DNA of 62,601 bases, the filler included, from Kipferlia bialata (taxonomy: Eukaryota): assembly GCA_003568945.1 (NCBI GenBank). It is 2 parts of 2 records of this genome, joined end to end, with 100 filler letters (N's around TTAATTAATTAA, not from the genome) between each part and the next. Parts side by side here need not be neighbours in the genome. Positions count along the whole stretch, not along the records: positions 31,372 to 62,601 come from BDIP01000110.1; 1 more part is not named here. One strand, written 5' to 3'. Within the stretch, counting starts at the first letter, position 1. Each line of letters starts with the position of its first letter. Made by a program: the position numbers and the translations under genes. Positions 74 through 60,475 of this stretch are shown here, in pieces. Below the pieces are notes generated by a model, which was not told where the DNA came from, made no database searches, and worked only from the letters and a program-made list of their open reading frames with translations.

Positions 74-157
74 GTGTGTCTCTGCCATGACCTCTGCCAT
101 GCAGTCCACACCGGTCAAGGGCATAGGGGTGGGAAAGAAGTTAGAGGTATATATACA

Positions 158-194
<37 letters not shown>

Positions 195-640
195 AAGTGT
201 ATATATAGTGGTGTATTTATATAGTCTATGTCATGCAGTCCACCCCGGTCAAGGGCATTGGGGTCGGGAAGAAGCTGGAGGTACGCATACTCTTGATGTG
301 TCAACATATTATGTGTGTGTGTATATTCTCTTTGGCTTAACTATATTTGTTCTCACCTTCCAGGTCGTCCCTCCCAACGTCTCCTTTGCAACAACCCTGG
401 ACGCCATGCAGGTATGAACACCAATTGCTACTCGATACAAGATACGCGGAGGTGTCATTGTTTCCATGCACTCCTCACATAGTGTATGATGAGATATTAC
501 AAAATGTCTTTCCCACTCACCCTCTAGCAGCGTCTGCGCCCCACCGTTGACCTCATGTCTCTATTGTGCTGTGCATCTCTACAGCACAGGCACTTGGATG
601 TGCTGGAGAGTGAGACAGGACTGCCAGTGTTAAGGTACAT

Positions 641-671
<31 letters not shown>

Positions 672-1615
672 ATATGTATATATATGTATGCACCTGGATG
701 TGCTGGAGAGTGAGACAGGACTGCCGGTGTTAAGGTATCTATATATAATAATAGATACTATATAGATATATGTGAGAAGAACATTTACCTTGATGTGCTG
801 GAGAGTGAGACTGGGCTACCAGTGCTGAGTATATACATGTACTAACGTACATACTAGATGAGGTGACCCCCACCCAGATGGTCCATTAGGGATATGTATA
901 TTCTTATATATTCACTACGTCATACATCACGTATACATATATATATATATATGAATATACTAGTATTCCTTACTTCAGGCTTGATGAGGTGACCCCCACC
1001 CAGATGGTCCATGAGGGAGGCCTGGACCACTTGGAGGCCATCAGGGAGTCAGTGGCAACAGCCAACGAGGAGGCAGAGGTATATACACGGCCTAGTAGTA
1101 TATACATATATACTTATATATATATGTGTGTATATGACTGTCTGAAGGCCATCAGGGAGTCAGTGGCCACAGCTAACGAGGAGGCAGAGGTACAGTATAT
1201 GTCTATATATATTATAGTATACATACATAGTGTGTGCATATTATTAGAAGGCTATTGGAGAGTCAGTGGCCACAGCCAACGAGGAGGCAGAGGTATATAC
1301 TATACACTTGTATATATGTATGTACTATTTTCTATCCCTGTCACTCACTCTAGGTCGAGACTAGACTTGATGCCTGTGAGAAGGCCATGAACTCATGGAC
1401 CAGTGACATATGCACAGACAGGTGTGTGTAAATAATAGTAATACACACACATATAAATTTGTATACCTGTATATATGCATACTAGTATATATGTATATAT
1501 CTCTGTTAAGGCCATGAACTCATGGACCAGTGACATATGTACAGACAGGTATGTGTATATATACATTGGTATATATATATGCATACATATATAATTATAT
1601 TCATTTGAGTATAAC

Positions 1616-1646
<31 letters not shown>

Positions 1647-3190
1647 CTATATATTATGGTCATGAACTCATGGACCAGTGACATATGCACAGACAGGTGT
1701 GTATGTTTACACTTGTATATATATGTATATATGCATTCTCACCCTCTAGGATAGTTGACATTGCCGCCAGAGGCTTTGGCCCATGGGACCTCAGTGATGG
1801 AGGGTTTGCTCTACCTGCACACTTCTTTGAGACACTCAGGTACATTGACCCACATATATACCATATGTACATATATCCTCAACCACATCTATTGTAACAT
1901 TTATGGACACGTATACTAATTCACATTCTGTCAACCTTTCTTTCTAATCTCCCAGGTCCATTGCCCTGTATGTCCAGAGGGACGTGGGGTCCAAGTATGC
2001 CGCACCCATCACCACAAGGTACGTGTGTATCTACACATGTATAGCCAATTTGATTAGTTAGTATATTGTTTTAAATCAGTATTGCAGGAGTATTCATTGT
2101 AGTATATATAGGTATCTATTCATTCAATCTCTATATTATATACATATCTCACTACTAATTCATATCTCACTAATTTGTAATAAGACTTACCCCCCAGGGC
2201 CAGGGCCGTTGAGAACACCATGCTCTGGGCCATGCACTCAGGGTCACTACTGAAGTGAGTATTCTACTCTATGTGGTAGTGTATACTACGCGATTAGTAT
2301 GTACTATACATATACATACATATATGTCTATGCTCTGGGCCATGCACTCAGGGTCACTGCTGAAGTGCGTAGGTGTAATATATAGTATCTGTATTGTATA
2401 ATACATTGCATATATGTACATATATGTCTAGAACACCATGCTCTGGGCCATGCACTCAGGGTCACTTCTGAAGTGAGTATACTACGCGATAGGGCATCAT
2501 CTATATCTTACGTGATTGCTATTGACCTTACTCCCAGGTGTGCCCAGCAGTATATCTCAGTGGGCAGCATCTTAATGACTAGCTCCAGTGCACACAGGGC
2601 AGTGTACTCTGGCGCTATCAACAAGGTGCCTACATGTATTCATATCGCCTATATTCTCTCTGGTACTTCTTGAGTAAGAGTATCAATATATACCCGTCGC
2701 GTAGTATCTCACCCCCAGTGGTACTCTCTGCGCAAGAGTGTGAAGCGGCTTGCCAAGAGCAGACTGCTGGACGTGCTGATGGACACGGACTTCAGCGAGA
2801 ACGTGCATGCCATTGTGGCATCACTCTCACCTACAATTCAGGTCTCAGTGTTCATATTCATGTTTGTCTCCCCCTATTGGTATTCCTATCCTCCAGTGTA
2901 TCTGTCTCTCTCTCTCTGTCTCTCTAACCATAGACCCTTAGCCACCGTAGCATGCACGACACCCTCCTAGCCTCCAGTGGAGATGGCACCGAGACATCAC
3001 TGAGGGGACTCATGACTATACCAGCCAAGGCTACCTATATTCAGGTACTCTCTCTCTCTCTCTCTATCACTACGTGCATATCATTCTTACCCACTAGGCC
3101 ATTCAAATGCGCCATGTCCCCAAGACCATTCTCTCTCTCTCTCTCTCTCTCTCATGTATAGGCGCCTCAAATGCGCCCTGTCTCCAAGAC

Positions 3191-3235
<45 letters not shown>

Positions 3236-3272
3236 ATGTATAGGCCCCCCAGATGCGCCCTGTCCCCAAGAC

Positions 3273-3305
<33 letters not shown>

Positions 3306-3517
3306 ATGTATAGGCCCCTCAAATGCGCCCTGTCCCCAAGACCCTTCTCTCTCTCTCTCCCCCTCTCTCTAATGTATAGCCCCCCCAGATGCGCCCTGTC
3401 GCAACGGCCCTAGTTTTTGAATATATGTATATATTTATATATATATATGTGTGTGTGTGTGTAATCATCTAACCTCTAGGCCCCCCAGATGCACCCTGTC
3501 CCCAAGACCCTAGTTTC

Positions 3518-3549
<32 letters not shown>

Positions 3550-6500
3550 GAATGTGTACTCTTACCTCTAGGCGCCTCAAATGCGCCCTGTCCCCAAGAC
3601 CCTGGTCTCTCAGTGCAAGGAGGGGGAGATGTATGTCCCCTATGCCCCAGTCACACTCTTCAACGTGGATGGGTTCATAGTCGCTAAGGTGCACACTATA
3701 TGTTGACTATATATACAGATATACCGTATATGTAAGGTTGTATTCTAGGTATTTAACACCACGTCCCTGGTCAGAAGAAGTCCTCCACCTCCCACTGGTA
3801 TCTGTCCTATTAGAAGTCTATATTAGTATACTCTATCTATAACACTAGATCCCAGGCCATAAGTCCCCGACCACCCTAACAATCACTCTCTCTCCATCTA
3901 TAATAGACATATATATGGTTTGTAATTCTTTGTATCTAACACCAGGTTCCCGGTGTAAAGAAGAAGAAGTCCCCCACAACCCTTGATGATACCCATATAT
4001 ATATGTTATCTAACTATGCTATAAGATCAATGGTAATACTTACACCAGGTTCCTGGCATTAAGAAGAAGAAGTCCCCTACAACCTAATAGCATCTATATA
4101 TGTCTAAGCACTCCATTGGATCTATATACTGTAAGTACTCTGTTACTGATTACAGGTCCCAGGCCAGAAGAAGAAGAAGTCCCCCACCACCCTGGAGGAG
4201 GGAGATGAGGAGGAGGAGGATGTGTGGGAGATCACGGGTGTGACATCAACAACGCGCATAGCGGCGCAGGTACCTACTCTTTGCCATTCTCTCAATGTAT
4301 ATATTGATATGCATACACATCCCACCCCAGGCTGACCTTCTGCGACTGAGGGACAAGGTGCCTCTGTCAGAGGTCAGAGGCCTCATTCCAAGGTATACAT
4401 GTGTATACATATATATATCTACAGTATGTAATACATGTAAACTGATACATATACTCTATATATACATATATATACCATATGTAATGTACTATGTGTATAT
4501 GGACAAGGTGCCCCTGTCAGAGGTCAGGGGCCTGATTCCAAGGTATTCATATAAATATATATATATATACATACAGTATGTAATATACCATATGTATACT
4601 GTTTGGTGCCTCTGTCAGAGGTCAGGGGCCTTATTCCTAGGTACAATAGTGTATACATATACTATTTAGAGCCTCCCTGTGTGACACAGTAGCACACGAC
4701 AATGATAGTACCATGTATTCACTTTCTCACAACTACTGAATTTCTATATACTCTCTACTTCTTACACTTAGGGATGTGCGTGCATCCATGCGTGACTCAG
4801 TTATACATACCACTGGCTCTGTTATTCACATATACTTACTACATATACATATATATATACTAATCCCTAGGGACGTGCGTCAGTCCATTCGCGACTCTGC
4901 CATCTCCGACCTATATGTATATATATATACTTGTACACTATACTAGTATACTAATCTCCAGAGATGTGCGTCAATCCATGCGCGAGGCAGTAGTGCATGA
5001 CACCGACTCTGCCATCTCTGACCTGGAGGCAGATGAGATGGATGCATTCTGGACAGGACACACCTATCACGCTAAGCATACAGGTATATATACACTATGT
5101 ATATAGTGTATATAGTATATATAGTGAATATATATGTATGTATATAGGATGACCTAGGGGCATATGAGATGGAGGGGTTCTGGACAGGGCATACCTATCA
5201 CGCAAAGCATATAGGTATATGTATATAGTGTGTATAGTATATATACTCTGTATGAGATGGAGGCAGATGAGACGGAGGCATTCTGGACAGGACATACATA
5301 CCATGCAAAGCATACAGGTATATGTATATAGTAATGTCTGTACCAGTTGCTGTACAAAAGTATCTGGTACTGACCCCAGCCCTCAACGTGTATGTGCATG
5401 ACCTGCTGAGGAGGGCCACAGTGTATATAATATATACATATAAATATATACATTACATATATATATACAGCATATTAACCCCAGCTCTGAATGTGTATGT
5501 GCATGACCTGCTGAGGAGGGCCACAGTGTCACCAGAGGGGGTTGCATCATTGAGACACGCTGTGAAGGCAAGTATTATGTGTATAGTGTATACTATAGTA
5601 TATGTGTATAGCACTATATACATGGTGTCACCTGAGGGGGTGGCATCACTCAGACACGCTGTGAAGGTATATATATATACATGATATAGTGTACAATAGT
5701 ATATATATATATGGGTATATTAGGATGTAGAGTGTCACCTGAGGGGGTGGCATCACTCAGACACGCAGTGAAGGTATATATATATATATATATACACTAT
5801 ATATATACTATATATATTCTAAGTATATACTATATATTGTCAGAAGTGTATAATTAGATGTACAGTGTCACTCGAGGGGGTGGCATCACTCAGACACGCA
5901 GTGAAGGTATATATATACATATTAGTATGCAAGTAAATTTAACTCTCGTTATGTATATATACATTTGTATGTATTTACTGACCCCCAGGACATCCTTGCC
6001 CAGATACAGCTACCCGAGTACAGACAGGACAGGGCAGACGACAGGTATATAGAAATACATGATATGTATTACTATTTGTATTGCAGTGTATAGTATGGTG
6101 TGGTATATAGGATATTGTATCAACTGCCCGAGTACAGACAGGACAGGGCAGATGACAGGTATATATATAGTATATGTTTAGTATATATATAGTATAGGAT
6201 AGTATGTATGTATGTTATACAATGGTAACAGGGCAGATGACTTGTGAGATACATGTAAATATGTCCCGTATCTTGGACATACTATATATACATACACGCC
6301 ACTAATACTATATGTACTAAAATTGTCCGAGTGCACTACTCGTGCCCTAGTATATACCCATCGATATATATATATACACTAACAATAGATACCTCTGCGA
6401 GGTCCTTGTACCCGAGTGGACTACTCATGCTCTCTCTTTCTTTCTCTCTCTCTCTCTCCAGATTCAAAACCTCTTCTCACCTTAGGTATCTCTGCGAGGT

Positions 6501-7231
6501 CCTTGTACCCGAGTGGACCACCCGTGTACTTGGCAGGGTACAGGGTGACACGGTGCATGTGCCTGTGCTCAGTGTGCCATGTGTCTCTAGATACATGTTC
6601 CAGTCAAAGGTAAACCGCGTAACTATAGGATCGCGTAACAATCTTTGTGGAGTAGTGAGTATATTTTCAGTGTGCCATGTATGTCAAGATACATGTTCCA
6701 GTCAAAGGTAAACCGCGTATTATGTGTAATCGTGTAGTTTCATATAAGAAATAGTATATATACTATATATACTGTACACTAACTGTAGGCCCTCTGCTAT
6801 TCCTCTATGGGTGTGCACCACAGACACATTGTCAATGACTGGCTGGGGGCTGTCAATGCGGCAGACTTAGGGTCAGGTATACATACATACATACATACAG
6901 TATATACAATACATAGAGAGAGAGTGTGTATATTCATATATATTAGACACATAGTCAATGACTGGCTGGGGGCAGTGAATGCTGCTGACCTGGGATCAGG
7001 TACATGTATTGGGGATGTGTTTTCCAGCCATGCTGGTATATTCAGTGTGTGTCTCACATCCAGACGCGTATATGAGTATACGTGTGAGTTTACAGTTAGA
7101 GATTATATATCTAACCTCAGCTGCTGACACCGACCAAGCATCATCCCTCCTCGAGAGTGACAGAAGTACAGACCAGTTTGGAGCATTATTGGCAAAGGGG
7201 GTCACGCTAGGTATGATAGTAATGTGTATAT

Positions 7232-7269
<38 letters not shown>

Positions 7270-7330
7270 GAGCACAGATCAGTTTGGGGCATTGTTGGCC
7301 AAGGGAGTGACACTAGGTATGATAGTAATG

Positions 7331-7371
<41 letters not shown>

Positions 7372-10300
7372 TGACAGAAGCACAGACCAGTTCGGGGCAT
7401 TGCTGGCAAAGGGGGTGACATTAGGTATGTGTATATAGATAACATGGTAAGTGTCTATATCGTATTACTTATACAGACAATGTAGCTGAAGAGTATTCTC
7501 CTGTGCACCTCTCACCCCCAGGTGTCTGTAGTATATTGTATATTATATAATGTATATTGTATATTGTATTGTATATAGTTCCAATGTTTATCAGTATACT
7601 GTAGTATATATGTATATATGTGTATATGTCCACTCACCCAGGTGTCTGCAATGCAGTGGGTGCAGGGATAGGCAGCACGGGCAGATACATGCAGCAGGTA
7701 CAGCATACTCTATATACACACACATACTTATGTATTAGTGTATATATATACATCTATATACTGGGATAAGCAGCACGGCAGATACATGCAGCAGGTACCA
7801 TAAACAGGATACTTATTTACCCATGTATATGTTGATTGATTAATGTATGTATATATATATATGTATATTGTTATACTGAGAGGCAGCACAGGCAGATATA
7901 TGCAGCAGGTACAGCATATGATACGATATACTTTACAATACATATGCGTGTGTATTGTTATAATGGCTTAGGCAGATACATGCAGCGGGTGCCACATACC
8001 CTTTAATATATATGTATTTAATATATATGTAATAGTGTACTAATTATTCATATGCATGGCCCTTTGTCATTGATTATATCCTCTCTATCTCTCTCTCTCT
8101 CCCCCCCCCCCTCCCATCCCCCATCCCAACTCCCCATCTATTACTATCCAATATCAGCTTTGTCATGAGTTAGGCATGGCCCCCTTTGTCATGAGTGCCA
8201 ACCAGCACCCAGACCCAAGGTGTGTATATACACATATACATGCATATATGCATATATACCTAGTGTGATAGTATCAATGGTATATATACATGGCCCCCTT
8301 TGTCATGATATCCAACCAGCACCCAGACCCAAGGTGCGTATGTATGGATATATATGTAAATACATGATTGCTGTGAAGTTTGTGTTTGTATATGCATATG
8401 TCCTGACGCACCAGAATGATGGCTTGCACCATCTCCGACCTCCTAATGTGTACTGCATAAGTATATATACTACTTATGCTATACCTTACGATACTATATA
8501 CGATCTGTCCTGTAACTTTAACCCCAGAATGATGGCCTGCACCATCTCCAACCTCATACTGGAGGGGCACCTGGTCTACCTGATAGGGGTGGAGGTGAGT
8601 ATAAATATGGATACTCCATCATACAGCCTAGCAATTCTAGGCTAGCGTCCTAGCGAATATATATATGAACCATATATTAAATGTATGGTCCTACGTATAT
8701 GCATGTATACATGAATATATCACTTGTCTCACCTCCAAAAAGCCTTCCCTCCTTGCACTTCTGATATATGTATATATATATATACATATCAATTATAGTA
8801 TTGACTATGTACTATACACATCTCGTGTCTAACCCCCAGAATGCTTCTCCCGAACTCTTGGCCCTCCTCGTTGACATCACCAACACACTCAGGCTGGGTG
8901 GGGAGTTCCCATACGCCAAGGGACCAACCATACCACACGGGGAGGTACATACATATACACTTACATCTATATATTCATACTTGTGGTATACTTTGATTCT
9001 ATATATCATTGGAATTCCCATGCGCCAAGGGACCCACGGTGCCACATGGAGAGGTATACTTCTATTCTTATACTCTCTTGCTCTCTTTACCAATTGTAAT
9101 TGTACTGACTCCTCACCCCCCAGTCCCCTGACTCTGATCTGTGTGTTGTCAGGAACCCCCTTGGTAAGAGTGCCCCCCACCCATCAGAGCACACAGTGGG
9201 GGCACTGGCATTCTACTTGCCAGGTAACAATATATAATATATAGTATATATATAGTATATATATATTGTATAAATAGTATATTAATGTACATATATACAT
9301 ATGTGAGTGCACCCCACCCATCAGAGCACACGGTGGGGGCACTGGCACTCTATCTGCCGGGTATGATATATGTTCATCTAGTTCATTACTATTGTTCCTA
9401 CGTTTCCATATCGTTTCTTACCCTCAGTCCTGGTGCCTGGTCCCTTTGTGATACCCGACCACCTGCCCAAGGACTGTGCCATCAGGTATTTATATACATA
9501 CACACATTCTAATGGGTATATGTTTCATATTAGAATGATATTTAGACACACATGTATACAAGCATATATATGTAGAGAGAGAGTAGTGGTATTAACCCCA
9601 GATACATTGATGTGCGTCGCCCCCCCGAGAAGCTGAGGTTCATACCCAAGTGCACTGGAAGGCCATGCCTGGCACTGAGGTATCAATATATATATATATG
9701 TATATATATATTGATACTATGTACACATATATACAATGTACATATGTACTATATACTGGGGGTTCATACCCAAGTGCACTGGAAGGCCATGCCTGGCACT
9801 GAGGTAGAGATACCTAGTATATGTAGAGTATAGAGCACATATATGTGTATATATACGTTCGTATCTCACTTCAGGACCACCTGTGCAGCAGCCAAGCCCC
9901 AGATATATATAAATATGTCTAGAAATAGTATTCATATGTATAGTCTATCCATATATATATATATATACATGTATACATATACCTTACTCTCCAGGACCAC
10001 TTATGGTAGTATACATATATATATATATGTGTATACATACGTTCGTATCTCATTTTAGGACCACCTATGCAGCAGCCAAGCCCCAGATATTCCTGGACCC
10101 CTCTGACGTGGCCATAGCAATGCGGATTAGGTATATGACAGCAGCAACCTTGTACTCACATTTTGTTATGGGTTCAGATACTCTATATCTACCAGTGTGG
10201 ATATCTGCATTGTCTGAGTCCTAGGGACGAGGGTGACTATGAGTTAGGAAGTGACGCTAATGCTGACTCATATATATATATATATACATATGCTGCAGTA

Positions 10301-13163
10301 TATGTATATATATGTGCATAGTCTATGTCTAACAAGTAGGGATGAGGGTGACTACCTTGGTGGGAGTGATGCCGATGCTGACTCTGAGGCAGAGGCAGAG
10401 GGCGACAGCCCAGAGACTGCAGTGTACAAGTACCTGTCCATGTCATTCAGACCCAGTGACAGGTGTGTATGGTATAGTATATACATATATATCATATGTG
10501 TGAGACATATATAGTGAGTCTACAAGTACCTGTCGATGTCATTCAGACCCAGTGACAGGTAATAGTAGAGTGTATTACAGTATTAATATATATATATAGC
10601 ATATGTGTGAGAAATATATAGTGTACACAAGTATCTGTCAATGTCATTCAGACCCAGTGACAGGTATAGTGTGAATATATAGAATTTCATATATATATAT
10701 ATATTTACCTGTATATACCTGTCCATGTCATTCAGACCCAGTGACAGGTATAGTGTGAATATACATATATGTATGATATATATATATACATAGAGAGATT
10801 CATGACACATATCCACATACATTGAGAGGTGTTCATATTGCTGTGTAAATTCTCACTCTTCAGGGAAGGCCTGCTCTCTGCTGTGTCTGCTGCCTCTATC
10901 CTGATATATCACCTATACATATATAATATGTATATATATATATATCTTAATATAGTATATTACTACTTACTATCAGGGAAGGCCTGCTCTCTGCCGTGTC
11001 TGCTGCCTTTGGGTCATCCATAGACGGGGAGAGACAGGTATATATATACTAACATATATGTATACATGTATACATATATGTATATATGTATACAGTATCA
11101 GTTATGTACATGTATGGTGTCTGTAGCGTTTGGGTCATCCATAGACGGGGAGAGGCAGGTATGTATATACATATATATGTATGCATGTATTCAGTATCAG
11201 TAATGTATACATATATAGTGTCTGCTGCCTTTGGGTCATCCATAGACGGGAAGAGACAGGTATAAGCTCTAGACTCTAGTGTTTCAGTATACACTGCCCC
11301 CCCCCTGACACATGTTATATATTATATATAGTAGACTAATGCTAGGAACCTGTCCCTGACTATGGCCAGTCCCAGGGCATTCTGTCTGGAGAGGGTGTCT
11401 ATGCAGCCAAGTGGCTAAACGCACTGCTGGAGACACCGGATGCTAAGGTACCTCACTATCTATATATATATATACATATCAGTCTATGTGTCTCATACCT
11501 AGGTTCAGATTCAGCCTCCTGCATCACTGAGCTTGCCATATATCTACCTACATACATATCTATATATATATATATTTATGTGTATGTATAGTATATACTA
11601 ATCTCCAGGGCTGGATCCAGTCCCCCTGCATCAACACTGGCATTGTCATACACACACATATATATAAATAGTCTCTATTTCCCAATCCATATATCTATAT
11701 CTGCATTACACTCATCTCCAGGTCTGGATCCAGTCCCCTTGTATCAACACTGGTCTTGCCATTGTCCAACATGCAGCCAGGGAGAGTGGGGCATCTATTG
11801 ACTTCAGAAGGTGATTCACACAGATGACTTTATATCTATGTCTAAATGATTATGTATAAGATATATTAACTATTAGAGTATTTTTGTATATGTCAGGGAG
11901 ATTGAGGCCAGCATTGATTACTGGGATTACACATCTATCTCTATAAGTGTGTATCAATATCTCCATTCACTGACCCCAGACACCCCAATCACATTGTAGC
12001 TACATATGTAGCACATACCAGTACCACTATATCATATGCTATTATATATGTATCTATGTCACTGATTCTAGGCACCCCAGGTTGAGATGCCCAGAGAGAG
12101 ATGTTATATACATGTATAATCTAGTAATATACATGTATATATATATATATATATATATGAATATCTCTGATACTGACACCAGACACCCTAATGAGGTCGA
12201 GCTACCAGTATTGACTATAGGCGGCATGTGTATATGTAACTTCTATAATAGATTTGTAAATTTGGTGCCTAGTGTATTTACTGACCCCAGACACCCCAAC
12301 GAGGTCGAGCTACCACGCAGGGGACTCAAGTCAGCAGACTGGCAGGTACTGGTCTCTTACAGTACTTCTACACGATACATGACCAGCCACTTCTTAAAGC
12401 TTCACGATATGCATAGTCTCACCCCCTAGGTCATCGACATGAGGTTTGACACGAATGGCACCACCTGTGGATATGAGGCAGAGGAGCAGGTATAGATATG
12501 TACTATAGATACATAGTAGTATATACCCTATATATACAGTATATGTACTATTAATGTTTCTGTATCCCCTGTGGATATGAGGCAGAGGAGCAGGTATAGA
12601 TATTGATGTTTACCACATACAAATAGTATAATCTATAGATCTGTGCTTCTATAGATCTCTCACCTGTGGGTTCCAACTATATATAGTCGTCTACTCTTTG
12701 CTACTCACCCCCAGGTTGCACAGCTGTCCAGGATGTTCAGAGTGGCAGGGGGGCAGGTAGGATATATATATGATAGAGACCCTGTATATACCTGTGATAC
12801 CAATTCATACCATACTATATACTATATATACTCTATGTATGTCCAGGATGTTCAGAGTGGCAGGGGGGCAGGTAGGAAGAATACTTAGTATCTACAGTAG
12901 AGATACAGTATATAGTGTATGTATATATATACTATAATAACTATACTAAACATGTCCAGGATGTTCAGAGTGGCAGGGGGGCAGGTACTGATTGTGATGA
13001 TACGGTATCTCTAACATTTTTCGCCTTCAATTTCTTTAACTGCATATGTGTCCTTTTACAGGTTATGTGCCTAACATATCAGCGCAGCATCATGATCAGC
13101 CCGACCTTGCCTACCCACAACCAGTACATGGTGCACACACTCAGGTATGTATCGGCATACGTA

Positions 13164-13198
<35 letters not shown>

Positions 13199-50033: not shown

Positions 50034-50580
50034 GACAGGGAGAGAGACAGAGAGAGAGGAAGAGAGAGTGAGGGAGAGAGTGGGTGGAGAAGAGAAGACA
50101 TAGAGAGCGAAATGGGGAGAGGACGAAGATGTGTCCTGGTACTTCAGAAGAGAGCACTGTAGTGAAGAGACAACATAATGCATGTACCTTGCCCATGCCT
50201 TCTTGCCCCTGCCACGAATGCTCTCCCTGGTGGGGAAGCCGGGTCCACCACCTGATCGTTAGGAGTCAGTAAGAGAGGACAGAACCGGGGATTAGAGGAT
50301 GACCGAATACATACCGATGGAGGGTGCGTGTGGGTTGGACCGCATGGCCCTCCTGTGCATGGGGGCAGACATCACGGGGGAGGGGGAGTACTCACTGCCA
50401 GATGAGGGGCAGGGGGAGGCAGTCACGGGGGTGTTGGGGGCTGGGGTGAGAGGATGAGGGACAGATAGTGATAGTGATGAGGACTCATGTCCTCTCACCC
50501 TGTAACCCAGTGGCGTCTGGGATAGGGGGCAGGCCACCAAAGTGGGACGGGCGCAGAGGCACGCTCTTTCTGTCACTCAT
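42793..50580 (-). CDS. SPX-EXS domain phosphate exporter, XPR1/SYG1/PHO1 family
   Basis: SPX end LNYAGFAK (48200-48272). EXS motifs INHVFVMELHP, LPFSRVRFFDFFVTETLTS, LPALFRLLQGMSLLAKTKRCFPHLASMGKY, YCYLWDM, DLVLRFSW and EICRRVIWSVFRIEYE...DFRA. Stop TAA at 42793-42795. The start at 50580 is tentative because an assembly gap lies in between. Confidence 0.9.
47821..47872. repeat. (AAGT/GAGT)n tetranucleotide microsatellite in an intron
   Basis: aagtaagtgagtgagtaagt... read directly. Confidence 0.9.
49454..49984. other. Assembly gap flanked by poly-C and poly-G runs
   Basis: Run of N with a long C run on the left and a long G run on the right. Confidence 0.99.
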
Positions 50581-50872
50581 CACTAATGTAGAGACGCAAG
50601 AGAGATGTGGAAGAGAGATGTGTTAGTATCTGATGGTCTAGGAAGAGCGTCACACAACAAACGGCCGTAGTACTTGTATACACTACGTTTGCGCTTACAC
50701 TACCATTTAGCACCCCAACACAATTCAATGAAGCCAATGATTTATATCAGGACCCCGCCGGCCTTGACCGATGTGGGGCCATTGTGGGGGTCGAGCCAAT
50801 GCTAGGACACATATGGTGTCCAAGTAAACAGCACGCCAGCCACTCCGTCACTCATACATAGGGTGTCAACAC

Positions 50873-50917
<45 letters not shown>

Positions 50918-50921
<4 letters not shown>

Positions 50922-53133
50922 GCCTCGGCCTGGACAAGGAGCTCTGCCAGGATGTCTGCGTATCTGGCCTGGAACAGCTTGATCTGCTTCTTGAAGGTGG
51001 GGGTCATCAGGTTGTCGGGGGTCCACTCCTCGGCCTCGAGGTGGATGCGCCTGGGCCTCTCGTAGCCCCACATGCTCAGGGCCTTGCCCTCCCTGGTGAT
51101 CTCGTCCAGCACCAGCTGCACGACAGCAGGGTCGGCACACAGGGCGGCGAAGTCGTCGTTGGCGGGAAGGCCGGCTGCGGCCACCCTAGCCTTGAGGACT
51201 GAGGGGTCAGGCACAATCACACCTACGGTGCAGGCGTTGGCCGGCTGGGCGTAGGTGAAGATCTGGGACACCACTGGGACAGCTCCCAGCCTATCCTCCA
51301 CAGACTCCAGGTTGACGTACTCGCCCTGCTGCAGCTTGATGATGCGGCCAGCCCTGGGGTGAGGGGTGTGGGTATGGGCCTATCATCTATATATCATAGA
51401 CACACGACTGACTATACACTGTGCCTCCGTACCTTCCGATGAGCTTGACGTCTCCCTCGGGGAACAGCTCTGCCATGTCTGATGTCCTGTACCAGCCCCC
51501 ATCGACAAGGGCCTCAGCGGTGGCCTCGGGGTTCTTGTAGTAGCCCTTCATCACGAAAGGTCCCTTGATCTGGAGCTCTCCCTGACATCAGAATACATAT
51601 GGGGCGGGAGAGAGAGATATGGGGTGCATGTACCTTGGGGTTGGATCCGTCGGTGGGGTTGGCCTCGTATCCGAGAGGGGGGTAGGACACAATCCTAGCC
51701 TCCACGTCCCTGAAGATGTGGCCCACACTGCGGTAGTCAGAGATCCAGGGCAGGGTGCCTGTGGAGAGGGCGCCTGTCTCAGAGGCTCCGTATCCGATGA
51801 AGAGCTCGGCACAGAAGGCAGCCCTGCAGAACTGACCGAGGTAGTTGGGCAGGAGGGCGGCACCGGCGGCAATCACAGTGACACGGCCACCAAGGAGGGC
51901 GGCGGTCTTGGAGAAGACGAGCTTGTCCCAGAACTTGTGCTGGCCCATGGCGATAGTGGAGCCGGGCTTGGCCTTGAGCATGGCCTTGACCTTGGACTTG
52001 AGGGCCATGTTGAACATCATCTGGGGGTAAGGGGGAGAGAGAGAGAGGCATATAAAAGGGGTAGTTCTCACCTTGGAGATGCCGCCCTTCTCGTTGATGC
52101 CGGTGGACACAGCGGCGTGGATCTTGGCAGCCACCCTGGGCACCATGCACATGAAGGTGGGCCTGAGGCACTGGGCGTCGGAGACCTGGGAGTGAGTGCG
52201 ATAAATGATACATAGATATATATGACAACATAGTAACACATCCACTCACCAGCCTGGAGGTGCTTCCGGTGAAGTATCCGATCCTGAATCCACACATGAT
52301 CATGGTCTGCTCAATGGCGTGGGAGAACACGTGACTAGGGGTGAGACATGCTAATAGAAGAGTGTGAGAACAGATGAGAGTGTACACAAGGGCACGTACG
52401 CTGTGGGCAGGTAGGACAGGAAGATGTGCTGGTGGGAGGGCACGTTCCTCTTGAGGGCCTCTGTGATGGGGAGTCTGCCGTGGAAGTTGTATGCGGCATA
52501 CAGGATGGAGCACTGCTTGAGCATGACGCCCTTGGGCACTCCGGTGGTGCCAGAGGTGTAGAAGATGGAGGCGTCGGTGTCAGAGGCAACGTCGGCATCG
52601 GCAGGGACGGGCAGGTTGGCTGTGGCCCTGATGATGTCATCAAGGGAGGACACGAGGATGGGGCCGTCCTGGTGCACGACTCCGGCTGCGGTCTCACCGT
52701 AGGGCATGAAGGCGGAGAGGTCGACCTCGAGGGCCTCCTCGTCCTCGGCCTCTGCCTCGGGGGAGGGGGACTTGGCCTTGGCCCTGGGCTCAGAGGCCAG
52801 GGTGTACAGGGACATGCGGGACTCAGAGACAGCGGGCATCACGGTGCCCTCGGGGAGGTCGGCAGGCACGTAGTACTCCTTGGCCTTGGCAAGCACCTGG
52901 GGTGAGACACTGCAATAGAAAGAGAGAGAGAAGAGGGGGGGGGGGGGCTATACACCCGCATACCTTGGCCTCGTCGAACTCCTGGAGGCAGATGACAGCC
53001 CTCAGGTTGGTGCAGAGGTGGGCGGATCCAAGGAGGCGGGGGAGGTAGTGCAGGTCACACAGCACAACCTGTGCGCCAGAGTGGTTGAGCACGTAGCGGA
53101 CGAGCTCGGGTCCGAGGGTGGAGTAGAGGGGGA
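50918..53133 (-). CDS. Long-chain fatty acyl-CoA ligase (ACSL/LACS-type, AMP-binding); N-terminus not found
   Basis: VPLYSTLGPELVRYVLNHS, P-loop IFYTSGTTGVPKGVML, LSYLPTAHVF, PTFMCMVPRV, IGYGASET, GELQIKGPFVMKGYYKNPEAT, KLQQGEYV and LMTPTFK. Seven exons with short introns. Confidence 0.92.
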
Positions 53134-53612: not shown

Positions 53613-53734
53613 ATGGACGAAGTTGCTGCGGCACGTGCTGCAGCCAAGGCAGAGCACAAGAGGCTATGTGCCCAGGGGGATGAGCTGAAGATTGAGACAC
53701 CCACTGGGCTCATATCAGGCACCCTGGTAGACAG

Positions 53735-53776
<42 letters not shown>

Positions 53777-55156
53777 CCTTCTCCCCTTGCCTGCCTTGTC
53801 TATATTGCAAGTGGGCAGTATTTATAGGGTCAAGTCTTGTATCCACTCGCTCTTTTTCATTTTCTTTCTCTCTCTGCCCCCCCCACCTCAGTGTGTGCAT
53901 ATATATATATGAGTGTCAATATCTTGAATGGACTCCTCTCTCAACTCTCTCTCTCTCTCTCTGCCTGGCAAGGGTGCAGATACCAACCCCTCTCAACACA
54001 TCTATCTACATATATTTACATATACTTATGTATATCCTATGGATATTCATCACTCACAATAGGTCTGACAAGGGTACAGACACCGACAACACCCCAGGGT
54101 CCAGAGGAGACATTGCCATCATGATACACGGGCTGGTATGTGCAGGGTATTGTCCATAGAACAGTTCATTGTATATATAGTGTATATATGTATAGAGAGA
54201 GGGAGAGAGAGTCTTTCCACTCTACATCTCCTGGGGTTACCAAGATATATATTTGTTTTCCTCTGACCTCACAGGGCTCCCACAGCAACATGCGCTTCTT
54301 TCCTTCTTTCCATTATGTATGTATGTATATTATATTATAAACTAATGTACTATCTGCAATTATAGATTTTTCACCCTGGGCTCCCACCGCAACTTACGCT
54401 TCTTCCCATGAACATACTAATACCATATGCCACAGTCATGTATACACATGAATATACCCTGTGTGTTCTTATGCTTATCCCAGGGCTCCCACCGCAATAT
54501 GCGCTTCTTCCCCATGCTGGCAGACACCCTGCCGGCATCGTCATACAGGTGTGTATGTATATATGCATACTAATACTGTGTGTGTGTCTGATATACGGAA
54601 ATATGACCTATACTAACCCCAGGTTTGACATCCAGGGCCATGGCAAGAGCACAGGGGAATTCAGGTGAGATACATATAGATATATATGTATATATACATA
54701 CAGATATATATATATATATCTGTAGGTTTGCATATGTATCTATATATCCCTCTGTCAAGGATATGGCCAGAGCACAGGGGAGTTCAGGTGAAGCTAGCTA
54801 CTGTAACACCTCTTTCTCTCGCTCTCTGGACAGGAACGTTCAGAGGTTGCCGGGACTATAACGTATACCCCACCTTCTCTCTCTCTCTGTCTCTCTCTCT
54901 CTCTCTAGACCCTTACTGTCAGCCTCAGTTACAAGCGTGATGTGGAGACCATGGAGTACATCCATCCTCTATCTCTCTCTCTCTCTCTCTCTCCCCCTCT
55001 CTAGACCCTTAATATCAGCCTCAGTTACAAGCGTGATGTGCAGACCATGGAGTACATCCACACCTTCTCTCTCTCTCTCTCTCTCTCCCCCTCTCTAGAC
55101 CCTTATTGTCAGCCTCAGTTACAAGCGTGATGTGGAGACTATGGAGTACATCCATA

Positions 55157-55190
<34 letters not shown>

Positions 55191-55246
55191 AGACCCTTAT
55201 TGTCAGCCTTAGTTATAAGCGTGATGTGCAGGTCATGGAGTACATC

Positions 55247-55290
<44 letters not shown>

Positions 55291-57973
55291 AGACCCTTAT
55301 ATTCAGTCTTAGCTACAAGCGTGATGTGGAGACCTTGGAGTACATCATCACACACCTCGAGGGGATGGGGTTCAGTGTTACCGATCTCATAGGTATATGG
55401 TTCATATATACATATATACTATATACTAATGAGTATCATCACACACCTCGAGGGGATGGGGTTCAACGTGACTGATCTCATAGGTAAATATATATATACA
55501 CATACACACATATATACTAATTTATGTATTACATATATATCTACTATATGTACTATATATATATACTATATACATATGGTTACATCATCAGACACCTCGA
55601 GGGGATGGGGTTCAACGTGACTGATCTCATAGGTATATATAGTGTATATTCTGATATGTATATACTTACCTTCTATGGGTAAATTAATATATAGTGCATA
55701 TATATATATGTAGTTACTATCTCTATAGGTCATTCTAACGGTGCCAACATTGTGCTGAGCATGCACCAGTCGCCTAACCATATGTATAGATATAGATATA
55801 GATATAGATATAGATATAGATATAGATAGATAGATATACTGGTAAAGAGGATGTAGCTCTCATATTTACATATATACGGGTATATATGCTTACAGGTAGG
55901 CCACTCCAAGGGTGCCAACATTGTGCTGAGCATGCACCAGTCACCCCTGCCATCACTCAGACACCTGTTCATATGCTCAAGCAGGTACATAGGCACATAC
56001 ATAGTATATATACAAATATATATGAGTATAGGTACATATATGTATTAATATGTATATATAGTATCGCCCCTGCCCTCACTCAGACACTTGTTCATATGCC
56101 CCAGCAGGTACATAGACATATATATGCACATATAGATTGTGATCGATACTGCCCCCCTCCCCTCTCCCCTAATCCACACTGATATATCCCTGTCGTATTC
56201 CCGATATATGTACAAGTATCTTCTTAATTCCTCTCTCTCTCTCTATGTTCCTCTGTCTCTCCCTCTCACCCCTGTCCTCACCCTCCCAGGCACGACATGC
56301 TCGGCAGACCCAAAGGTATGTATATCAATATATATATATATATATAGGGAGAGACAAAGGTATGTGGATGTAAGTTGGGGCACTCTATCGCGTTTCTCTC
56401 TTTCCCTATTTGCGTCTCTCTTGATTCATCGCTAACAGTATATCGTGCCTTCTTTCAGTATACATATAGTATGAGAAATAGAATATTTCAGAATACATAT
56501 AGTACAATAACCTTGATATAGTATAAGTATTGTATAGTATCTCTCTCACTTTCCAGGCCGATACTCCGATGCCCAGCGCAAGACTCTGGCTGAGACTGGA
56601 TGCTTCAGACACACATTCAGCAAGTATGTATATATACTGTATAGTGTATACATATATATATATACAGTATATTCCAAATAGTAATTTCTTTGAGATTGAA
56701 AGCTTCACTGCAAGTACGCATGTATTGACTACAGTACTTCCTATACATATACCACTGATATCTTGACCCCCAGGTACACTGGAGAGGTCACTGTGCGTGG
56801 GTGTGACATGAAGGAGAGGGAGCAGGTATCCATATGCCATGCCCAATTCTATATACCACACTCTATTCAGAGCATATTATATAGTGTATGTGGGTGTGAC
56901 ATTGTCAGTGTCTGGACTCCTAGATTGACATGTATACTTCTTCTTGACTGGTCCTGACTGCTCTTGACTTCTATTGACCCCTTCCCAGATTGACATGGAC
57001 CGTGACCACCTTGCCAAGTGGGGGGAGAGAGAGGCCAGGAGGGCACAGGAGGGATACACTCCCTTAAAGGCCACAGTGGTCCATGGGAGGTATATATTCT
57101 TTAGTAATACTATTCATATATATGTATATCATATGACATATATATGTGAGAGAGAATATCAGTATCGCTTGAGGCCACTATCGTGCACGGGGAGGTACAC
57201 TCATACATTCACATACTCTCGTATGTATCCTATATAGTGTAGTCCATTCTTCTATATACTTGCTCCTTTGTATATTTCTATTTCCAGCTCTAGATACCTA
57301 TTTTCTGTATTACTTATACTTAGAGCTGATACACTCATCCTCTATGCAGATGCAGAGTATATCAGTATCAGTATCACTTTCTGTATACATACATTATTGA
57401 TATCCTTATATATATTTTACTCACATTAGGGCCGATACCGTCATCCCCTATGTGGATGCTGAGCGCATCAGAGACGGACTGGAGAGGGTGGGGGTGGCAT
57501 GTGCGCTCTTCCCACTAGGTACTTGTATACTACTCTATGCTATGCTATACAATACTATACTATACTATACTATACTATACTATGTATATACTGTATTCTA
57601 TGGAGAGGGTGGGGGGTGGCATGTGCCCTATATCCACTAGGTAAGGATTGCATATCGCATATATACTGGACAAATACTAGGAATATATGAAGTGTGTACA
57701 TTGTATATATGTCTTTATTGTATATATGTCTATACATCCGTAGATGGACATGTATATGTACTATATATGTATTTCCGAAGCAGTCTAACCACAGGCCCTC
57801 CCAAGGCAGATGGAGTGGAGGGGGAGAGGGAGGGAGAGATTGAGACCCCCCAGATAGGGGAGGTAGAGGGAGAGAGAGAGGAGGAGGAGGAGGAGAAGCC
57901 CTGTGACCACATGTTCGCAGGGTACGAGAAGGCAGTGGCTGACATTGTAATGGGGGTTATCAACGCTAGATAG
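53613..57973 (+). CDS. Alpha/beta-hydrolase fold protein (serine esterase-like)
   Basis: Spliced product has IMIHGLGSH, RFDIQGHGKSTGEF, nucleophile GHSKG (about 55900-55915), acid HGRADTVIP and His CDHMF. TAG at 57971-57973. Confidence 0.88.
54900..55306 (+). repeat. Four tandem units of about 95 bp: (CT)n + branch + AG + about 40 nt of the next exon
   Basis: Echo starts at 54923, 55019, 55113 and 55207. The full exon (SLSYKRDVETLEYIITHLEG...) starts at 55307. Confidence 0.92.
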
Positions 57974-58348
57974 GAAGCTAACGCGAAATACAATTGCTCA
58001 CGCGAGATTTATGGTTAGCAGTGGCTGACATAGTCATGGGGGTCATCAACGCGAGATAGATAGACAACGTGACATAGAGAGTTGATAACACACACGATGT
58101 ATGTGCCACTATTGACCTTGAATGTTAGCAATCACAACTGAACTGAACTGAACATGGTGACCAAGTATCTATTTCACAACTCTTCCAATCATGAGCAGTT
58201 GTCCTGCAAAGCCCTTGAAAGATAGTGCAACGCCTAGTCCCCCTAGTCTCTCTAGCGTAGGCCGAATCCCTCGCTGTCACTCTATCTTTGTCTAGCTAGA
58301 TATAACACTAGGGCCTAATAGTCCTTTGACATACAAGTGAGGAAACCT

Positions 58349-60334
58349 CTAACGGAGACCGAATCCCTCGCTGTTGCCAATGGCAATCAGAAGCTGCTCA
58401 CGAAGAACATCCTTGGAGCTGGGGTGAGTACATATAGACAGAAAGAGAGAGACAATGAGACCTGAGGCTAATACATATACGTGTATATATGGTGAGAGTG
58501 GAAGAGACAGACACACGCATACCTGTAGTCCGGTATCATGAGGGCACTGAAGCACACGTGGGAGGTGGGGAGTCTGGGATGAGAGGATGGTACCTAAAAC
58601 ACAGACAATATATATAGCTATACTACCATCTATAGCTGTAGGTCACATACATAGGTAGTAGACATGCATGTACATGGTACATATAACTTGTCAATGCCCA
58701 TACCTGTCATCCTCCACCCCGTTCCTGACAATGATGAACTGCTACATTAATATATAAATATATATATGTACATATATGTGATGGTATATTCTATGTCTAC
58801 TATACCTGTCATCCTCCACCCCGTTCCTGACAATGATGAACTGCTGCTTGGAGAGACCGCCTGACTGTCAGAATACAATATATATATATGGAAGATATAT
58901 ATATATATGGAAGAAAAGTGACTGTATGAACTGCCGCTCAGAGAGACCACCTGACTGTAAGAATACATAACCAAACTATATAGAGCGACAATACAAAGAC
59001 ATAAAACAATGGTGACTGTAAGAACTGATACACTATGTCATACCTACTGGTGCCCTGTCACTCCCGCACACACCAACCAACCAATCAATCAATAGACAAA
59101 TGAATCAATCAATCAATCAATCAATCAATCCATTAATGATGATTACTCACCTACTGGTGCCCTGTCACTACCACACACAAACTTGAGCAGTTGTTTCTGC
59201 TGCTCTGGGGTCATGTCATGCACAATCTCCCAGAACCACAGGACTGAGGTGAGTATATATTATATAGACATAATGATATACATTATATTATGAAAGATGT
59301 ATATATATGAATATGAATATATAGGTCATGTCATGCACAATCTCCCAGAACCACAGGACTGAGGTCAGTATATGCGGTTATATTATATATATATACTTAT
59401 AGGAGAAGTGGAGAAGTGAGGTTAAGTATATAGAAACAGATATATAGATATATATGTATCAAATGCTGTGGTCATGTCATGCACAATCTCCCAGAACCAC
59501 AGGACTGGAATGAGTATATATTACATATACATACAGATATATAATATAATGTGAAAGATGTATATACATGTATATGTATATGGGTCATGTACAATGTCAT
59601 GCACAAACTCCCAGAACCACAGGACTGGAATGAGTATATACGGCTATAATAAATAATTATAATCATATCAAGAGTGGAGAAGTGAGGAAAAGTATATAGA
59701 AACAGATCTATAGATAATGAATTCAGAGGTCATGCACAATCTCCCAGAACCACACGACTGAGGGTGAAAGTACGGTTAATCACCAAAACAATATAGAATT
59801 ACACAAAACATTCAATGTATTTCATTGTATGTAAAAGACAAGGACCATGCACATTCATACCATACCTATCTTGTGGCTGGCATATGTTTCTAGAGTATAC
59901 ATCTACTATATGTCATACCTATCTTGTGGCTGATGTGGTACCCACCATCAAATATAGTTATATATAGGTATACATACAGGTATATATAGTACATACAGTA
60001 CACACAATAGTATACAATACCTATCTTGTGGCTGATGTGGTACCCTCCATCAAATAACCATATATATGCATATATACATATGTATAGGTATACAGTACAT
60101 ATAGCATATGTATACCATGTATCCTACCTATCTTGTGGCTGATGTGGTACCCTCCATCATACTTGGTGACACGCTCCAGGGCCTGGGGAGTGAGACTACG
60201 AAATGAATATATTTATATATATAATGATAATGTGCTATTAAACACACATGAACATATAACCATACCTTGAAGTCGAGTGTCTGTTCTCCACACACTATCA
60301 GCTCCATCTCCTCGGGTCTGAAGAAGGGGGGGCC
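58349..60334 (-). CDS. HECT-domain E3 ubiquitin ligase, C-terminal part only (UBE3A/HERC-like)
   Basis: Exons splice to [106 protein letters not shown]. The catalytic Cys and terminal Phe are retained. Confidence 0.92.
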
Positions 60335-60430
60335 CTATGAGTTAGACATATATATATAGAATATATAGTGTATACACACATGTATATATATATATATATA
60401 TATCAGCTCCATCTCCTCGGGTCTGAAGAA

Positions 60431-60475
<45 letters not shown>

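What the first reader, a model, noticed from the sequence alone, without database searches (positions are those of the whole stretch)
57932..58374. Two convergent genes each repeat their last codons and stop in the 3' region, all changes silent
Hydrolase end 57932-57973 (AVADIVMGVINAR*) is echoed at 58018-58059 with att/ata, gta/gtc, gtt/gtc, gct/gcg and the TAG kept. HECT end 58349-58374 (SEGFGLR*, minus strand) is echoed at 58252-58277 with ggt/ggc, ctc/cta, cgt/cgc and the TAG kept. These lie after stop codons, so decoy-splice or splicing-enhancer explanations are insufficient. The echoed unit is the coding/non-coding boundary, which favours a homology-driven DNA recombination mechanism (inference).
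Basis: partly seen in the sequence, partly recalled or inferred. Interest (0 to 1): 0.85.

Follow-up and report, generated by a model that had tools for sequence, protein, structure and literature searches.

The report
Codon-preserving echoes of exon ends
In this intron-rich single-celled eukaryote, both genes in question, and most introns nearby, carry short unused copies of the neighbouring exon end that differ from it mainly by silent changes; they are likely leftover pieces of other working alleles pasted in during DNA repair, which would make one genome a record of hidden mating and extreme genetic diversity.

Summary
Confirmed, and much larger than the finding. Both post-stop echoes are real: 7 of 7 differences are silent. 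One DNA contig at single-copy depth spans both. The HECT RNA-like contig reads through its stop and its echo. They are two of 147 echoes in the modelled genes; 76 of 115 introns hold one. Units repeat about every 110 nt, carry at most 68 nt of exon, and have strict polarity. Of 484 mismatches, 348 fall at third codon positions (pS 0.27, pN 0.03). Echoes also differ from each other mostly silently. A dead copy beside a selected exon allows at most 38% silent differences; 72% are seen. So the copies were protein-coding for most of their separate history, yet the main transcripts skip them. Best reading (0.5): fragments of diverged working alleles captured by offset inter-allelic repair and now decaying slowly. 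Against it: no second allele is seen here, no other isolate was found, and divergence is oddly uniform. Window proteins match Kipferlia bialata records. I found no description in the papers searched.

The parts
57932..57973 (+). Original A: last 13 codons and TAG of the alpha/beta-hydrolase gene
   Evidence: model identical to P0004
57974..58017 (+). Spacer after the hydrolase stop (44 nt; 3' UTR of the resident allele)
   Evidence: aligns weakly to 58060-58103, shuffle p 0.005
58018..58059 (+). Echo A': same peptide and stop, 4 silent differences, period 86 nt
   Evidence: on DNA contig X1 record 6
58060..58251 (.). Middle of the intergenic region; inferred to be the donor allele's own intergenic DNA if A' to B' came in as one piece
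   Evidence: Inference; echoes are nested in 23 of 23 introns with both types; paired divergence rho 0.49, n 23
58252..58277 (-). Echo B': same peptide and stop, 3 silent differences, period 97 nt; lies in the HECT 3' UTR
   Evidence: X2 contig runs 58418 to 58212 unbroken
58278..58348 (-). Spacer after the HECT stop (71 nt)
58349..58374 (-). Original B: last 7 codons and TAG of the HECT ligase gene
53613..57973 (+). Hydrolase gene, 12 exons; 6 of 11 introns hold echoes
   Evidence: exon sum of 383 nt matches the RNA contig
54665..55306 (+). Hydrolase intron with 1 donor echo and 4 acceptor echoes
58349..60334 (-). HECT ligase gene, last 6 exons; 3 of 5 introns hold echoes
59244..60127 (-). 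884-nt HECT intron with 3 donor echoes (one only 14 nt, not in the 147 kept) and 4 acceptor echoes, all skipped by the RNA contig
74..31009 (+). Large 90-exon gene (my model, 2610 codons open, incomplete at both ends, not RNA-checked); 65 of 89 introns hold echoes
50921..53133 (-). AMP-binding enzyme gene, internal contrast: 6 short introns (51-79 nt), no echoes

Best explanation
The echoes are short copies of a coding/non-coding boundary that the main transcripts skip, and they likely come from other, long-diverged working alleles of the same gene, likely pasted next to the resident copy when a DNA break in an intron or 3' region was repaired from the other allele but joined about 110 nt out of register. 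Shown: unit anatomy (up to 68 nt of exon end, then GT, AG or TAG, then a 42-110 nt spacer as a rule), strict polarity, silent bias, and skipping by the main RNA. Inferred step 1: a break falls in AT-rich non-coding DNA, where alleles no longer align, so pairing has to use the conserved exon. Inferred step 2: synthesis on the other allele runs across the boundary, and the old end is joined on without being trimmed, so the boundary is doubled with one copy from each allele. Inferred step 3: only products that leave splicing and the reading frame intact survive, which explains the polarity and the absence of whole-exon copies. Inferred step 4: captured copies decay at about 0.025 changes per site, roughly a tenth of the silent divergence, so gain and loss must be fast. 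Near-identical copies would be deleted first. The two post-stop echoes may be the two ends of one captured 260-nt piece (58018-58277).
For: Copies identical at birth cannot give this pattern. The silent share is 72% (326 silent differences against 126 changed codons); the ceiling is 38% if only the exon is selected. Echo against echo, both non-coding: 97 silent and 82 non-silent differences in 60 pairs, 23% silent expected (pairs not independent). Changes private to one echo: 64 silent, 41 not; private to the exon: 20 and 4. Ten codon swaps of two or more letters keep the residue. Amino-acid changes are milder than random (BLOSUM -0.07 against -0.50, p 0.002). GC at third positions is 0.661 in echoes and 0.667 in exons, with introns at 0.36. 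Decay is consistent: GT kept in 71 of 73 and AG in 46 of 50 (about 2.4% per site, my arithmetic), pN 0.032 exon-echo and 0.052 echo-echo. Transcripts use the originals. A seamless GT-AG swap is possible in only 9 of 147 echoes. The innermost donor and acceptor echoes of an intron share their divergence (rho 0.49, p 0.017, n 23). Context from papers: fornicates lack Ku-type end joining and Rad51A and have two Dmc1 genes (PMC8516963, section 8 read); Dmc1 stabilises mismatched joints (PMC6719624, abstract); crossovers in a 14%-diverged fungus concentrate in exons (PMC4209137, abstract); ends on homologues can be joined, and breaks on two chromatids give tandem duplications (10.1101/2020.06.23.168138, passages).
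Against: No diverged second allele shows at these exons in the DNA run (contigs drop variants and the 90% cut-off is near the expected divergence). Silent differences per echo fit one Poisson rate (lnL -239.6) far better than the geometric spread of a freely mixing population (-274.0). In Schizophyllum, linkage lasts hundreds of nt (PMC4576712, passage), so this uniformity needs structured donors or loss of near-identical copies, which is untested. The pS of 0.27 exceeds the 0.20 reported there. Flank similarity does not track pS (rho 0.003, n 94). There is no clear microhomology at junctions (AT 0.56 against 0.50 simulated). Donor and acceptor echoes do not co-occur more than by chance (p 0.43), so most events are not two-sided. 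Stop codons are not clearly depleted (4 of 126, 4.9% expected). No sexual or parasexual process has been observed directly in metamonads (PMC8516963, passage). Frames in the large gene rest on my own model.
Confidence: 0.5

Rival explanations
1. Same-chromosome tandem duplication makes an identical echo; afterwards the resident exon end is repeatedly overwritten by diverged alleles through ordinary gene conversion, so each echo is a snapshot of a past resident allele. It needs the same diverse, recombining population but no out-of-register joining between alleles.
For: Some units are duplicated with their spacers (87% over 116 nt and 84% over 123 nt in the 884-nt HECT intron). The HECT echoes other than B' have 4 silent and 5 non-silent changes. 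Echo-echo pS (0.21) is near exon-echo pS (0.27).
Against: The fitted class of near-identical echoes is under 2%. Third-position mismatch is flat right up to the splice site (0.19, 0.24, 0.19, 0.17, 0.19 per 10 nt from the donor). Paired donor and acceptor divergence is correlated.
Confidence: 0.2
2. The echoes are old and kept by selection because they are sometimes translated: a repeat-guided swap at RNA or DNA level removes the stretch between original and echo, so that the echo's codons replace the exon end.
For: It explains pN/pS 0.12, the uniform divergence and the lack of correlation with flanks. One search lists a 116-nt RNA contig laid at 57932-58047 with 3 other letters. 116 equals the 86-nt period plus 30, it starts at the first base of homology, and 3 is the number of A/A' differences in the first 30 nt. 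I infer a loop or circle; its letters were not shown.
Against: All listed pieces of the two long RNA contigs carry 0 other letters, so they use the originals. No X2 cover lies at 58048-58173. The loop is what template switching between close repeats gives in a library (PMC2923612, search listing only). Echo-private changes are three times richer in non-silent changes than exon-private ones (41/105 against 4/24), and splice dinucleotides are lost at about the same rate. No benefit is apparent. Heritable swaps frequent enough to be selected would erase the silent divergence (my population-genetic argument, not computed in a call).
Confidence: 0.13
3. The two post-stop echoes are alternative terminal exons.
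For: AG at 58017-58018, with a CTCAC 16 nt upstream, is in frame with the previous donor; two AGs at echo B' are in frame too.
Against: The products lose 46 residues of the hydrolase, including the DHMF motif (likely the catalytic His; recalled, not tested), or 14-16 residues of the HECT C-terminus. RNA contigs use the original last exons. The 7 listed plus 3 dropped joints equal the 10 canonical introns of the stretch (the match is my inference). It does not explain the 145 other echoes.
Confidence: 0.05
4. Assembly artefact: two haplotypes were written in tandem.
For: The window has N gaps, long G runs and a contig linker. X1 may be the sample the window was built from (the tool's own caveat), so it is not independent.
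Against: One 864-nt contig at depth 421 (other long pieces 313-480) covers 57904-58729 with 0 differences and 0 gaps. Original and echo share at most 14 and 16 exact letters, too few to link in a 31-mer graph. An RNA-like contig holds B and B' in genomic order. Families hold up to 6 different copies, and 12 of 176 variable sites have three alleles.
Confidence: 0.04
5. Ordinary tandem duplication followed by neutral decay, with silent bias only because the working exon is selected.
For: It explains position, polarity and unit size. An earlier scan note explained sea-urchin echoes this way (43 of 107 silent; e1-9861148, unchecked).
Against: The ceiling is 38% silent and 72% is observed (p 8e-50; with nearest echoes only, 255 of 349 mismatches are at third positions). 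Echo-echo differences are 54% silent where 23% is expected. There is no drift to AT at third positions (134 against 122).
Confidence: 0.03

Closest known systems
Tandem duplications across exon-intron junctions
   Same: Head-to-tail copies of an exon end with its splice site, lying in the neighbouring intron, skipped by splicing.
   Different: There the silent share (43 of 107) fits dead copies and about one exon end in six is copied. Here it is 72%, echo-echo differences are silent too, 76 of 115 introns are affected, and stop codons are copied.
Inter-homologue end joining and duplications at meiotic double cuts in mouse (10.1101/2020.06.23.168138; passages read)
   Same: Offset breaks on two chromatids give tandem duplications; ends from two homologues can join; inserts can come from the other homologue; microhomology is short.
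   Different: Those are rare events at hotspots, mostly seen without ATM and between close haplotypes. They have no tie to exon boundaries, no 110-nt unit, and do not form a standing genome architecture.
Recombination in hyperdiverse Schizophyllum commune (PMC4209137 abstract; PMC4576712 abstract and passages)
   Same: Very high silent diversity (0.20); crossovers prefer conserved exons.
   Different: No boundary duplications appear in what I read. Diversity there was measured in populations; here it is only inferred from one genome.
Intron gain by tandem genomic duplication of an AGGT-containing exon segment (PMC3443670; passages read)
   Same: A local duplication of exon sequence that leaves the protein unchanged.
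   Different: There the duplication creates a new intron and the copies start identical. Here existing boundaries are copied into existing introns or UTRs in the opposite arrangement, and a seamless GT-AG cut is possible in 9 of 147.
Silent gene-conversion cassettes (trypanosome VSG, Borrelia vls, chicken Ig pseudo-V; recalled, no call)
   Same: Unexpressed partial gene copies that keep coding character.
   Different: Those diversify one surface or immune protein. These sit at almost any housekeeping exon end and mostly encode the same peptide.

Membership tests
Dead tandem duplicate of a splice junction | Head-to-tail copy of a boundary lying in adjacent non-coding DNA | tested here: met
   147 echoes; 0 reversed in polarity; control 0 of 356 non-adjacent exon-intron pairs
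Dead tandem duplicate of a splice junction | Silent share no higher than exon-only selection allows (38% here); echo-echo differences random | tested here: not met
   72% exon-echo; 54% echo-echo against 23%
Inter-allelic repair or offset crossover product | The two copies differ as working alleles do (low pN/pS, same intron position, coding GC3) | tested here: met
   pN/pS 0.12; GT 71/73, AG 46/50; GC3 0.661 against 0.667
Inter-allelic repair or offset crossover product | Echo variants exist as working alleles in another haplotype or isolate | tested here: inconclusive
   No second allele listed at these exons in X1; no close relative in 18 metagenome loci; no whole genome held
Inter-allelic repair or offset crossover product | Junction signature of end joining (microhomology or filler) | tested here: inconclusive
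   First junction base AT 0.56 against 0.50 simulated, 147 junctions; donor alleles unknown
Inter-allelic repair or offset crossover product | New events arise in heterozygotes or crosses | not testable with these tools
   Needs cultures of more than one isolate
Intron gain by tandem genomic duplication (Rogers model) | A duplicated AGGT supplies both splice sites of a new intron between the copies | tested here: not met
   Seamless GT-AG cut in 3 of 147 near the junction, 9 of 147 anywhere; RNA uses the exon-adjacent sites
Alternative terminal exon | In-frame acceptor before or in the copy | tested here: met
   AG at 58017-58018 and two AGs at B' are in frame
Alternative terminal exon | Transcripts that use it | tested here: inconclusive
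   Not listed, and the main contigs use the originals; contigs drop rare variants and X2 is only guessed to be RNA
Mutually exclusive duplicated exons | Whole exon copied with both splice sites | tested here: not met
   Donor-side echoes start at least 10 nt inside the exon; none is anchored at the wrong end
Silent gene-conversion cassette | Donor sequence appears in the expressed locus or its mRNA | tested here: inconclusive
   0 other letters in the listed pieces of the two long RNA contigs; one 116-nt contig has 3

The most novel reading that the evidence does not exclude
The echoes are a working system: the cell swaps exon ends and stop codons through short direct repeats, at RNA or DNA level, cutting out the stretch between original and echo as a small circle so that the echo is translated. 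The 86-nt loop inferred at the hydrolase stop would be such a circle. Every echo-bearing gene would then carry spare, protein-conserving boundaries kept by selection.
Probability: 0.12. Interest if true: 0.95.

Novelty: new variant of a known kind. Interest (0 to 1): 0.76.

Why it matters
Non-coding copies that show protein-level conservation should not exist at this density under the usual picture of duplication and decay. If the best reading holds, one genome stores samples of many diverged alleles. At 1.3 echoes per intron here and 124,912 introns reported for K. bialata (PMC5874029), that would be on the order of 100,000 (my extrapolation from one window). They would be sequence evidence of outcrossing and very high diversity in a group where sex has not been observed directly (PMC8516963). 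They would also be a readout of how breaks are mended without Ku and Rad51A, and the main way introns grow here (104 nt per echo). A second isolate would test all this directly. In practice the echoes mislead gene finders: my unmasked model took many as extra exons.

Tried and rejected
No whole genome is held, so the genome-wide scan was not run; all counts come from 5 modelled genes in this window. Genes at 31.4-50.6 kb were not modelled. Of 153 segments, 2 beside an N gap or G run and 4 under 18 nt were dropped. One search listed no holder on record as RNA; X2 is a guess, although its contigs skip GT-AG introns. The metagenome scan gave 18 loci at 23-29% identity, none usable. One 45-aa exon of the large gene found no homologue (only proteins up to 2000 aa searched, weak). 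Pfam found nothing for 5 of 8 single exons. Start-codon echoes: none at the hydrolase, 61138 and HECT starts (only 140 nt searched for HECT). A two-haplotype hybrid model fits poorly: echoes differ from each other nearly as much as from the exon, and 12 sites have three alleles. A one-event pairing of donor and acceptor echoes is not the rule (p 0.43). The junction microhomology test was inconclusive. Selection on echoes through occasional back-conversion was rejected by argument only. Paper searches that found no description of this pattern: Kipferlia + intron; 25 of 33 listed; 5 of 5; 6 of 6; 15 of 5214; listings only. In the K. bialata genome paper 'duplicat' occurs 0 times in the main text (12 of 15 passages seen). 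No supplements were read; those of PMC5874029 and PMC8516963 may bear on ploidy and on which repair genes this species has. Two of three look-ups in earlier findings returned nothing.
Full report
Observation. Both echoes are exactly as described. The hydrolase end 57932-57973 recurs 86 nt later with 4 silent differences. The HECT end 58349-58374 (minus strand) recurs 97 nt later with 3. Nothing else in the window comes close (best other matches 25/42 and 17/26). The originals are the coding copies: the spliced hydrolase model equals protein P0004, and the minus-strand exons match Pfam HECT. The best hits for two window genes are named Kipferlia bialata at 99% and 100% identity, a free-living fornicate with 124,912 introns that is suggested to be diploid (PMC5874029, passages).

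Is it real DNA, and is it used? One contig of run X1 covers 57904-58729 with no difference and no gap, at the depth of other long contigs (421 against 313-480). X1 may be the source of the assembly, but original and echo share at most 14 and 16 exact letters, so a 31-mer graph cannot have fused two haplotypes here. Run X2, guessed to be RNA, gives GT-AG joints for both genes. Its HECT contig runs from 58418 to 58212 through the stop and echo B', and skips an 884-nt intron that holds 7 echoes. The hydrolase contig enters the original last exon at 57793. The AG at 58017-58018 is in frame with the previous donor, but the product would lose 46 residues, and no such joint is listed. Contigs drop rare variants, so minor use is not excluded.

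The wider pattern. I modelled five genes. The hydrolase and HECT models are checked against RNA joints; the 90-exon gene is my own model. Aligning each exon to its neighbouring non-coding DNA gave 153 segments, against 0 in 356 control pairs; 147 were kept. 76 of 115 introns hold at least one; the AMP-binding gene, with six introns of 51-79 nt, holds none. Exon ends with their GT are copied downstream, exon starts with their AG upstream, and never the reverse. In 23 of 23 introns with both types, donor echoes come first. The nearest echo lies a median 113 nt away (quartiles 100-126). The exon part has a median of 38 nt and never exceeds 68, although 16 of 40 in long exons should exceed 70 if breakpoints were uniform. 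The two post-stop echoes are the same kind of unit at a third kind of boundary.

The silent bias. Mismatches by codon position are 80, 56 and 348. The bias holds for nearest echoes only (52, 42, 255), after trimming junctions (67, 43, 310), in the two RNA-checked genes (18, 9, 46), and without any gene model (238 of 355 mismatch gaps divisible by three). pS is 0.27 and pN 0.032. If a copy is born identical and only the exon is selected, at most 38% of differences can be silent; 72% are. Echoes differ from each other in the same way (97 silent, 82 not). They keep exon-like GC at third positions, and they include swaps such as AGG/CGC and AGC/TCA. An earlier scan note explained sea-urchin echoes by exon-only selection at 43 of 107 silent; that null fails here.

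What follows. A copy made from the resident exon starts identical, so its own silent-biased changes mean one of two things: it came from a working sequence that was already diverged, or it is still translated. The data lean to the first. The main transcripts skip the echoes. A seamless splice swap is possible in only 9 of 147. Echoes carry a small extra load of non-silent changes (41 of 105 private changes, against 4 of 24 in exons). They have lost splice dinucleotides at about the same per-site rate (6 of 123). This is the picture of coding sequence that stopped being used recently, after about 0.025 changes per site, against a silent divergence of 0.2-0.27.

Mechanism (inferred). Alleles that align only in exons would be forced to pair there, as crossovers do in hyperdiverse Schizophyllum (PMC4209137, abstract). 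Fornicates lack Ku-type end joining and Rad51A and have two Dmc1 genes (PMC8516963, section 8), and Dmc1 stabilises mismatched joints (PMC6719624, abstract). A break in an AT-rich intron or UTR, repaired from the other allele and joined without trimming the old end, would double the boundary with one copy from each allele. Inter-homologue end joining and duplications of this general kind are seen in mouse meiosis (10.1101/2020.06.23.168138, passages). Selection would remove products that make a new exon or break the frame. For the finding itself, 58018-58277 may be a single captured piece holding both gene ends and the donor's intergenic DNA. A and B are both highly diverged (4 in 10 and 3 in 5.3 silent sites), while the other HECT echoes have 4 silent changes in all, and paired echoes within introns share their divergence (rho 0.49). 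Pairing is not the rule, though (p 0.43).

What does not fit. No second allele or close relative was seen. Silent differences per echo follow a single Poisson rate, and near-identical echoes are scarce. A freely mixing population would give a wide spread, since linkage in Schizophyllum lasts hundreds of nt (PMC4576712, passage). Rapid deletion of identical repeats plus my detection limit could narrow the spread, but I did not test that. Flank similarity is only slightly above control (0.62 against 0.58) and does not track pS. Junctions show no clear microhomology. One 116-nt contig in X2 has the length, start and number of differences of a loop made of original A plus spacer. I could not see its letters. 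Template switching in the library is the plain explanation, but it is also what a repeat-guided excision would leave, so I keep that reading at 0.12-0.13.

Comparison and verdict. It is built like a tandem duplicate of a splice junction but fails that family's test of random decay. It is not intron gain by AGGT duplication (PMC3443670, passages), and not duplicated whole exons. It works most like an offset inter-allelic repair product, membership unproven. Four searches of the paper library (listings only) showed no description. Observation confirmed; first reading partly supported; best explanation 0.5, or 0.7 together with the related rival that also needs diverged alleles; interest 0.76.

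Noticed in passing
window 57932-58047: A 116-nt contig of run X2 with 3 other letters fits an 86-nt loop (original A plus spacer, followed by original-type A). Inferred from the table; could be a library template switch or a small circle.
   Followed up: partly
window 5568-5569 and echoes at 5625-5666, 5731-5773, 5862-5906: In my model the working donor is GC (a GC-AG intron) while all three echoes have GT at the same place.
   Followed up: no
window 60431-60474: The G run probably hides an assembly gap in the HECT gene: position 60336 is letter 2052 of the RNA contig, yet only about 700 nt of window lie upstream before the first exon.
   Followed up: partly
window 31272-31371: N runs around a TTAATTAATTAA motif: the window joins at least two separate contigs here.
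   Followed up: no
window 50921-53133 and 50187-50607: Two genes with short introns (51-79 nt; 58-63 nt) and no echoes, beside genes whose introns are long, TA-rich and full of echoes. Two intron classes, possibly tied to expression; depth here cannot rank genes.
   Followed up: partly
window 41566-41599 against 41650-41683; 35541-35564 against 35749-35772: Echoes in unmodelled genes of the second contig; the first pair reads MSGEAAQTLGG against MNGDAAQTPGG. Not counted in the statistics.
   Followed up: no
window 17565-17594: A strongly diverged exon-end echo (AFMFSADQLI against AFMFNADQLI), below my score cut-off, with its own upstream AG; more such old echoes are probably missed.
   Followed up: no
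window 74-31009: A 90-exon gene of more than 2610 codons with no hit from one 45-aa exon; function not studied.
   Followed up: partly
window 51113-51128 and 51293-51301: Other letters in both runs or in X2 within the AMP-binding gene, probably from its paralogue (P0002, 67% identical over the exon searched).
   Followed up: no
window 45947-46218 and 42747-42833: Short TA-rich tandem repeats with a 52-104 nt period in unmodelled sequence.
   Followed up: no
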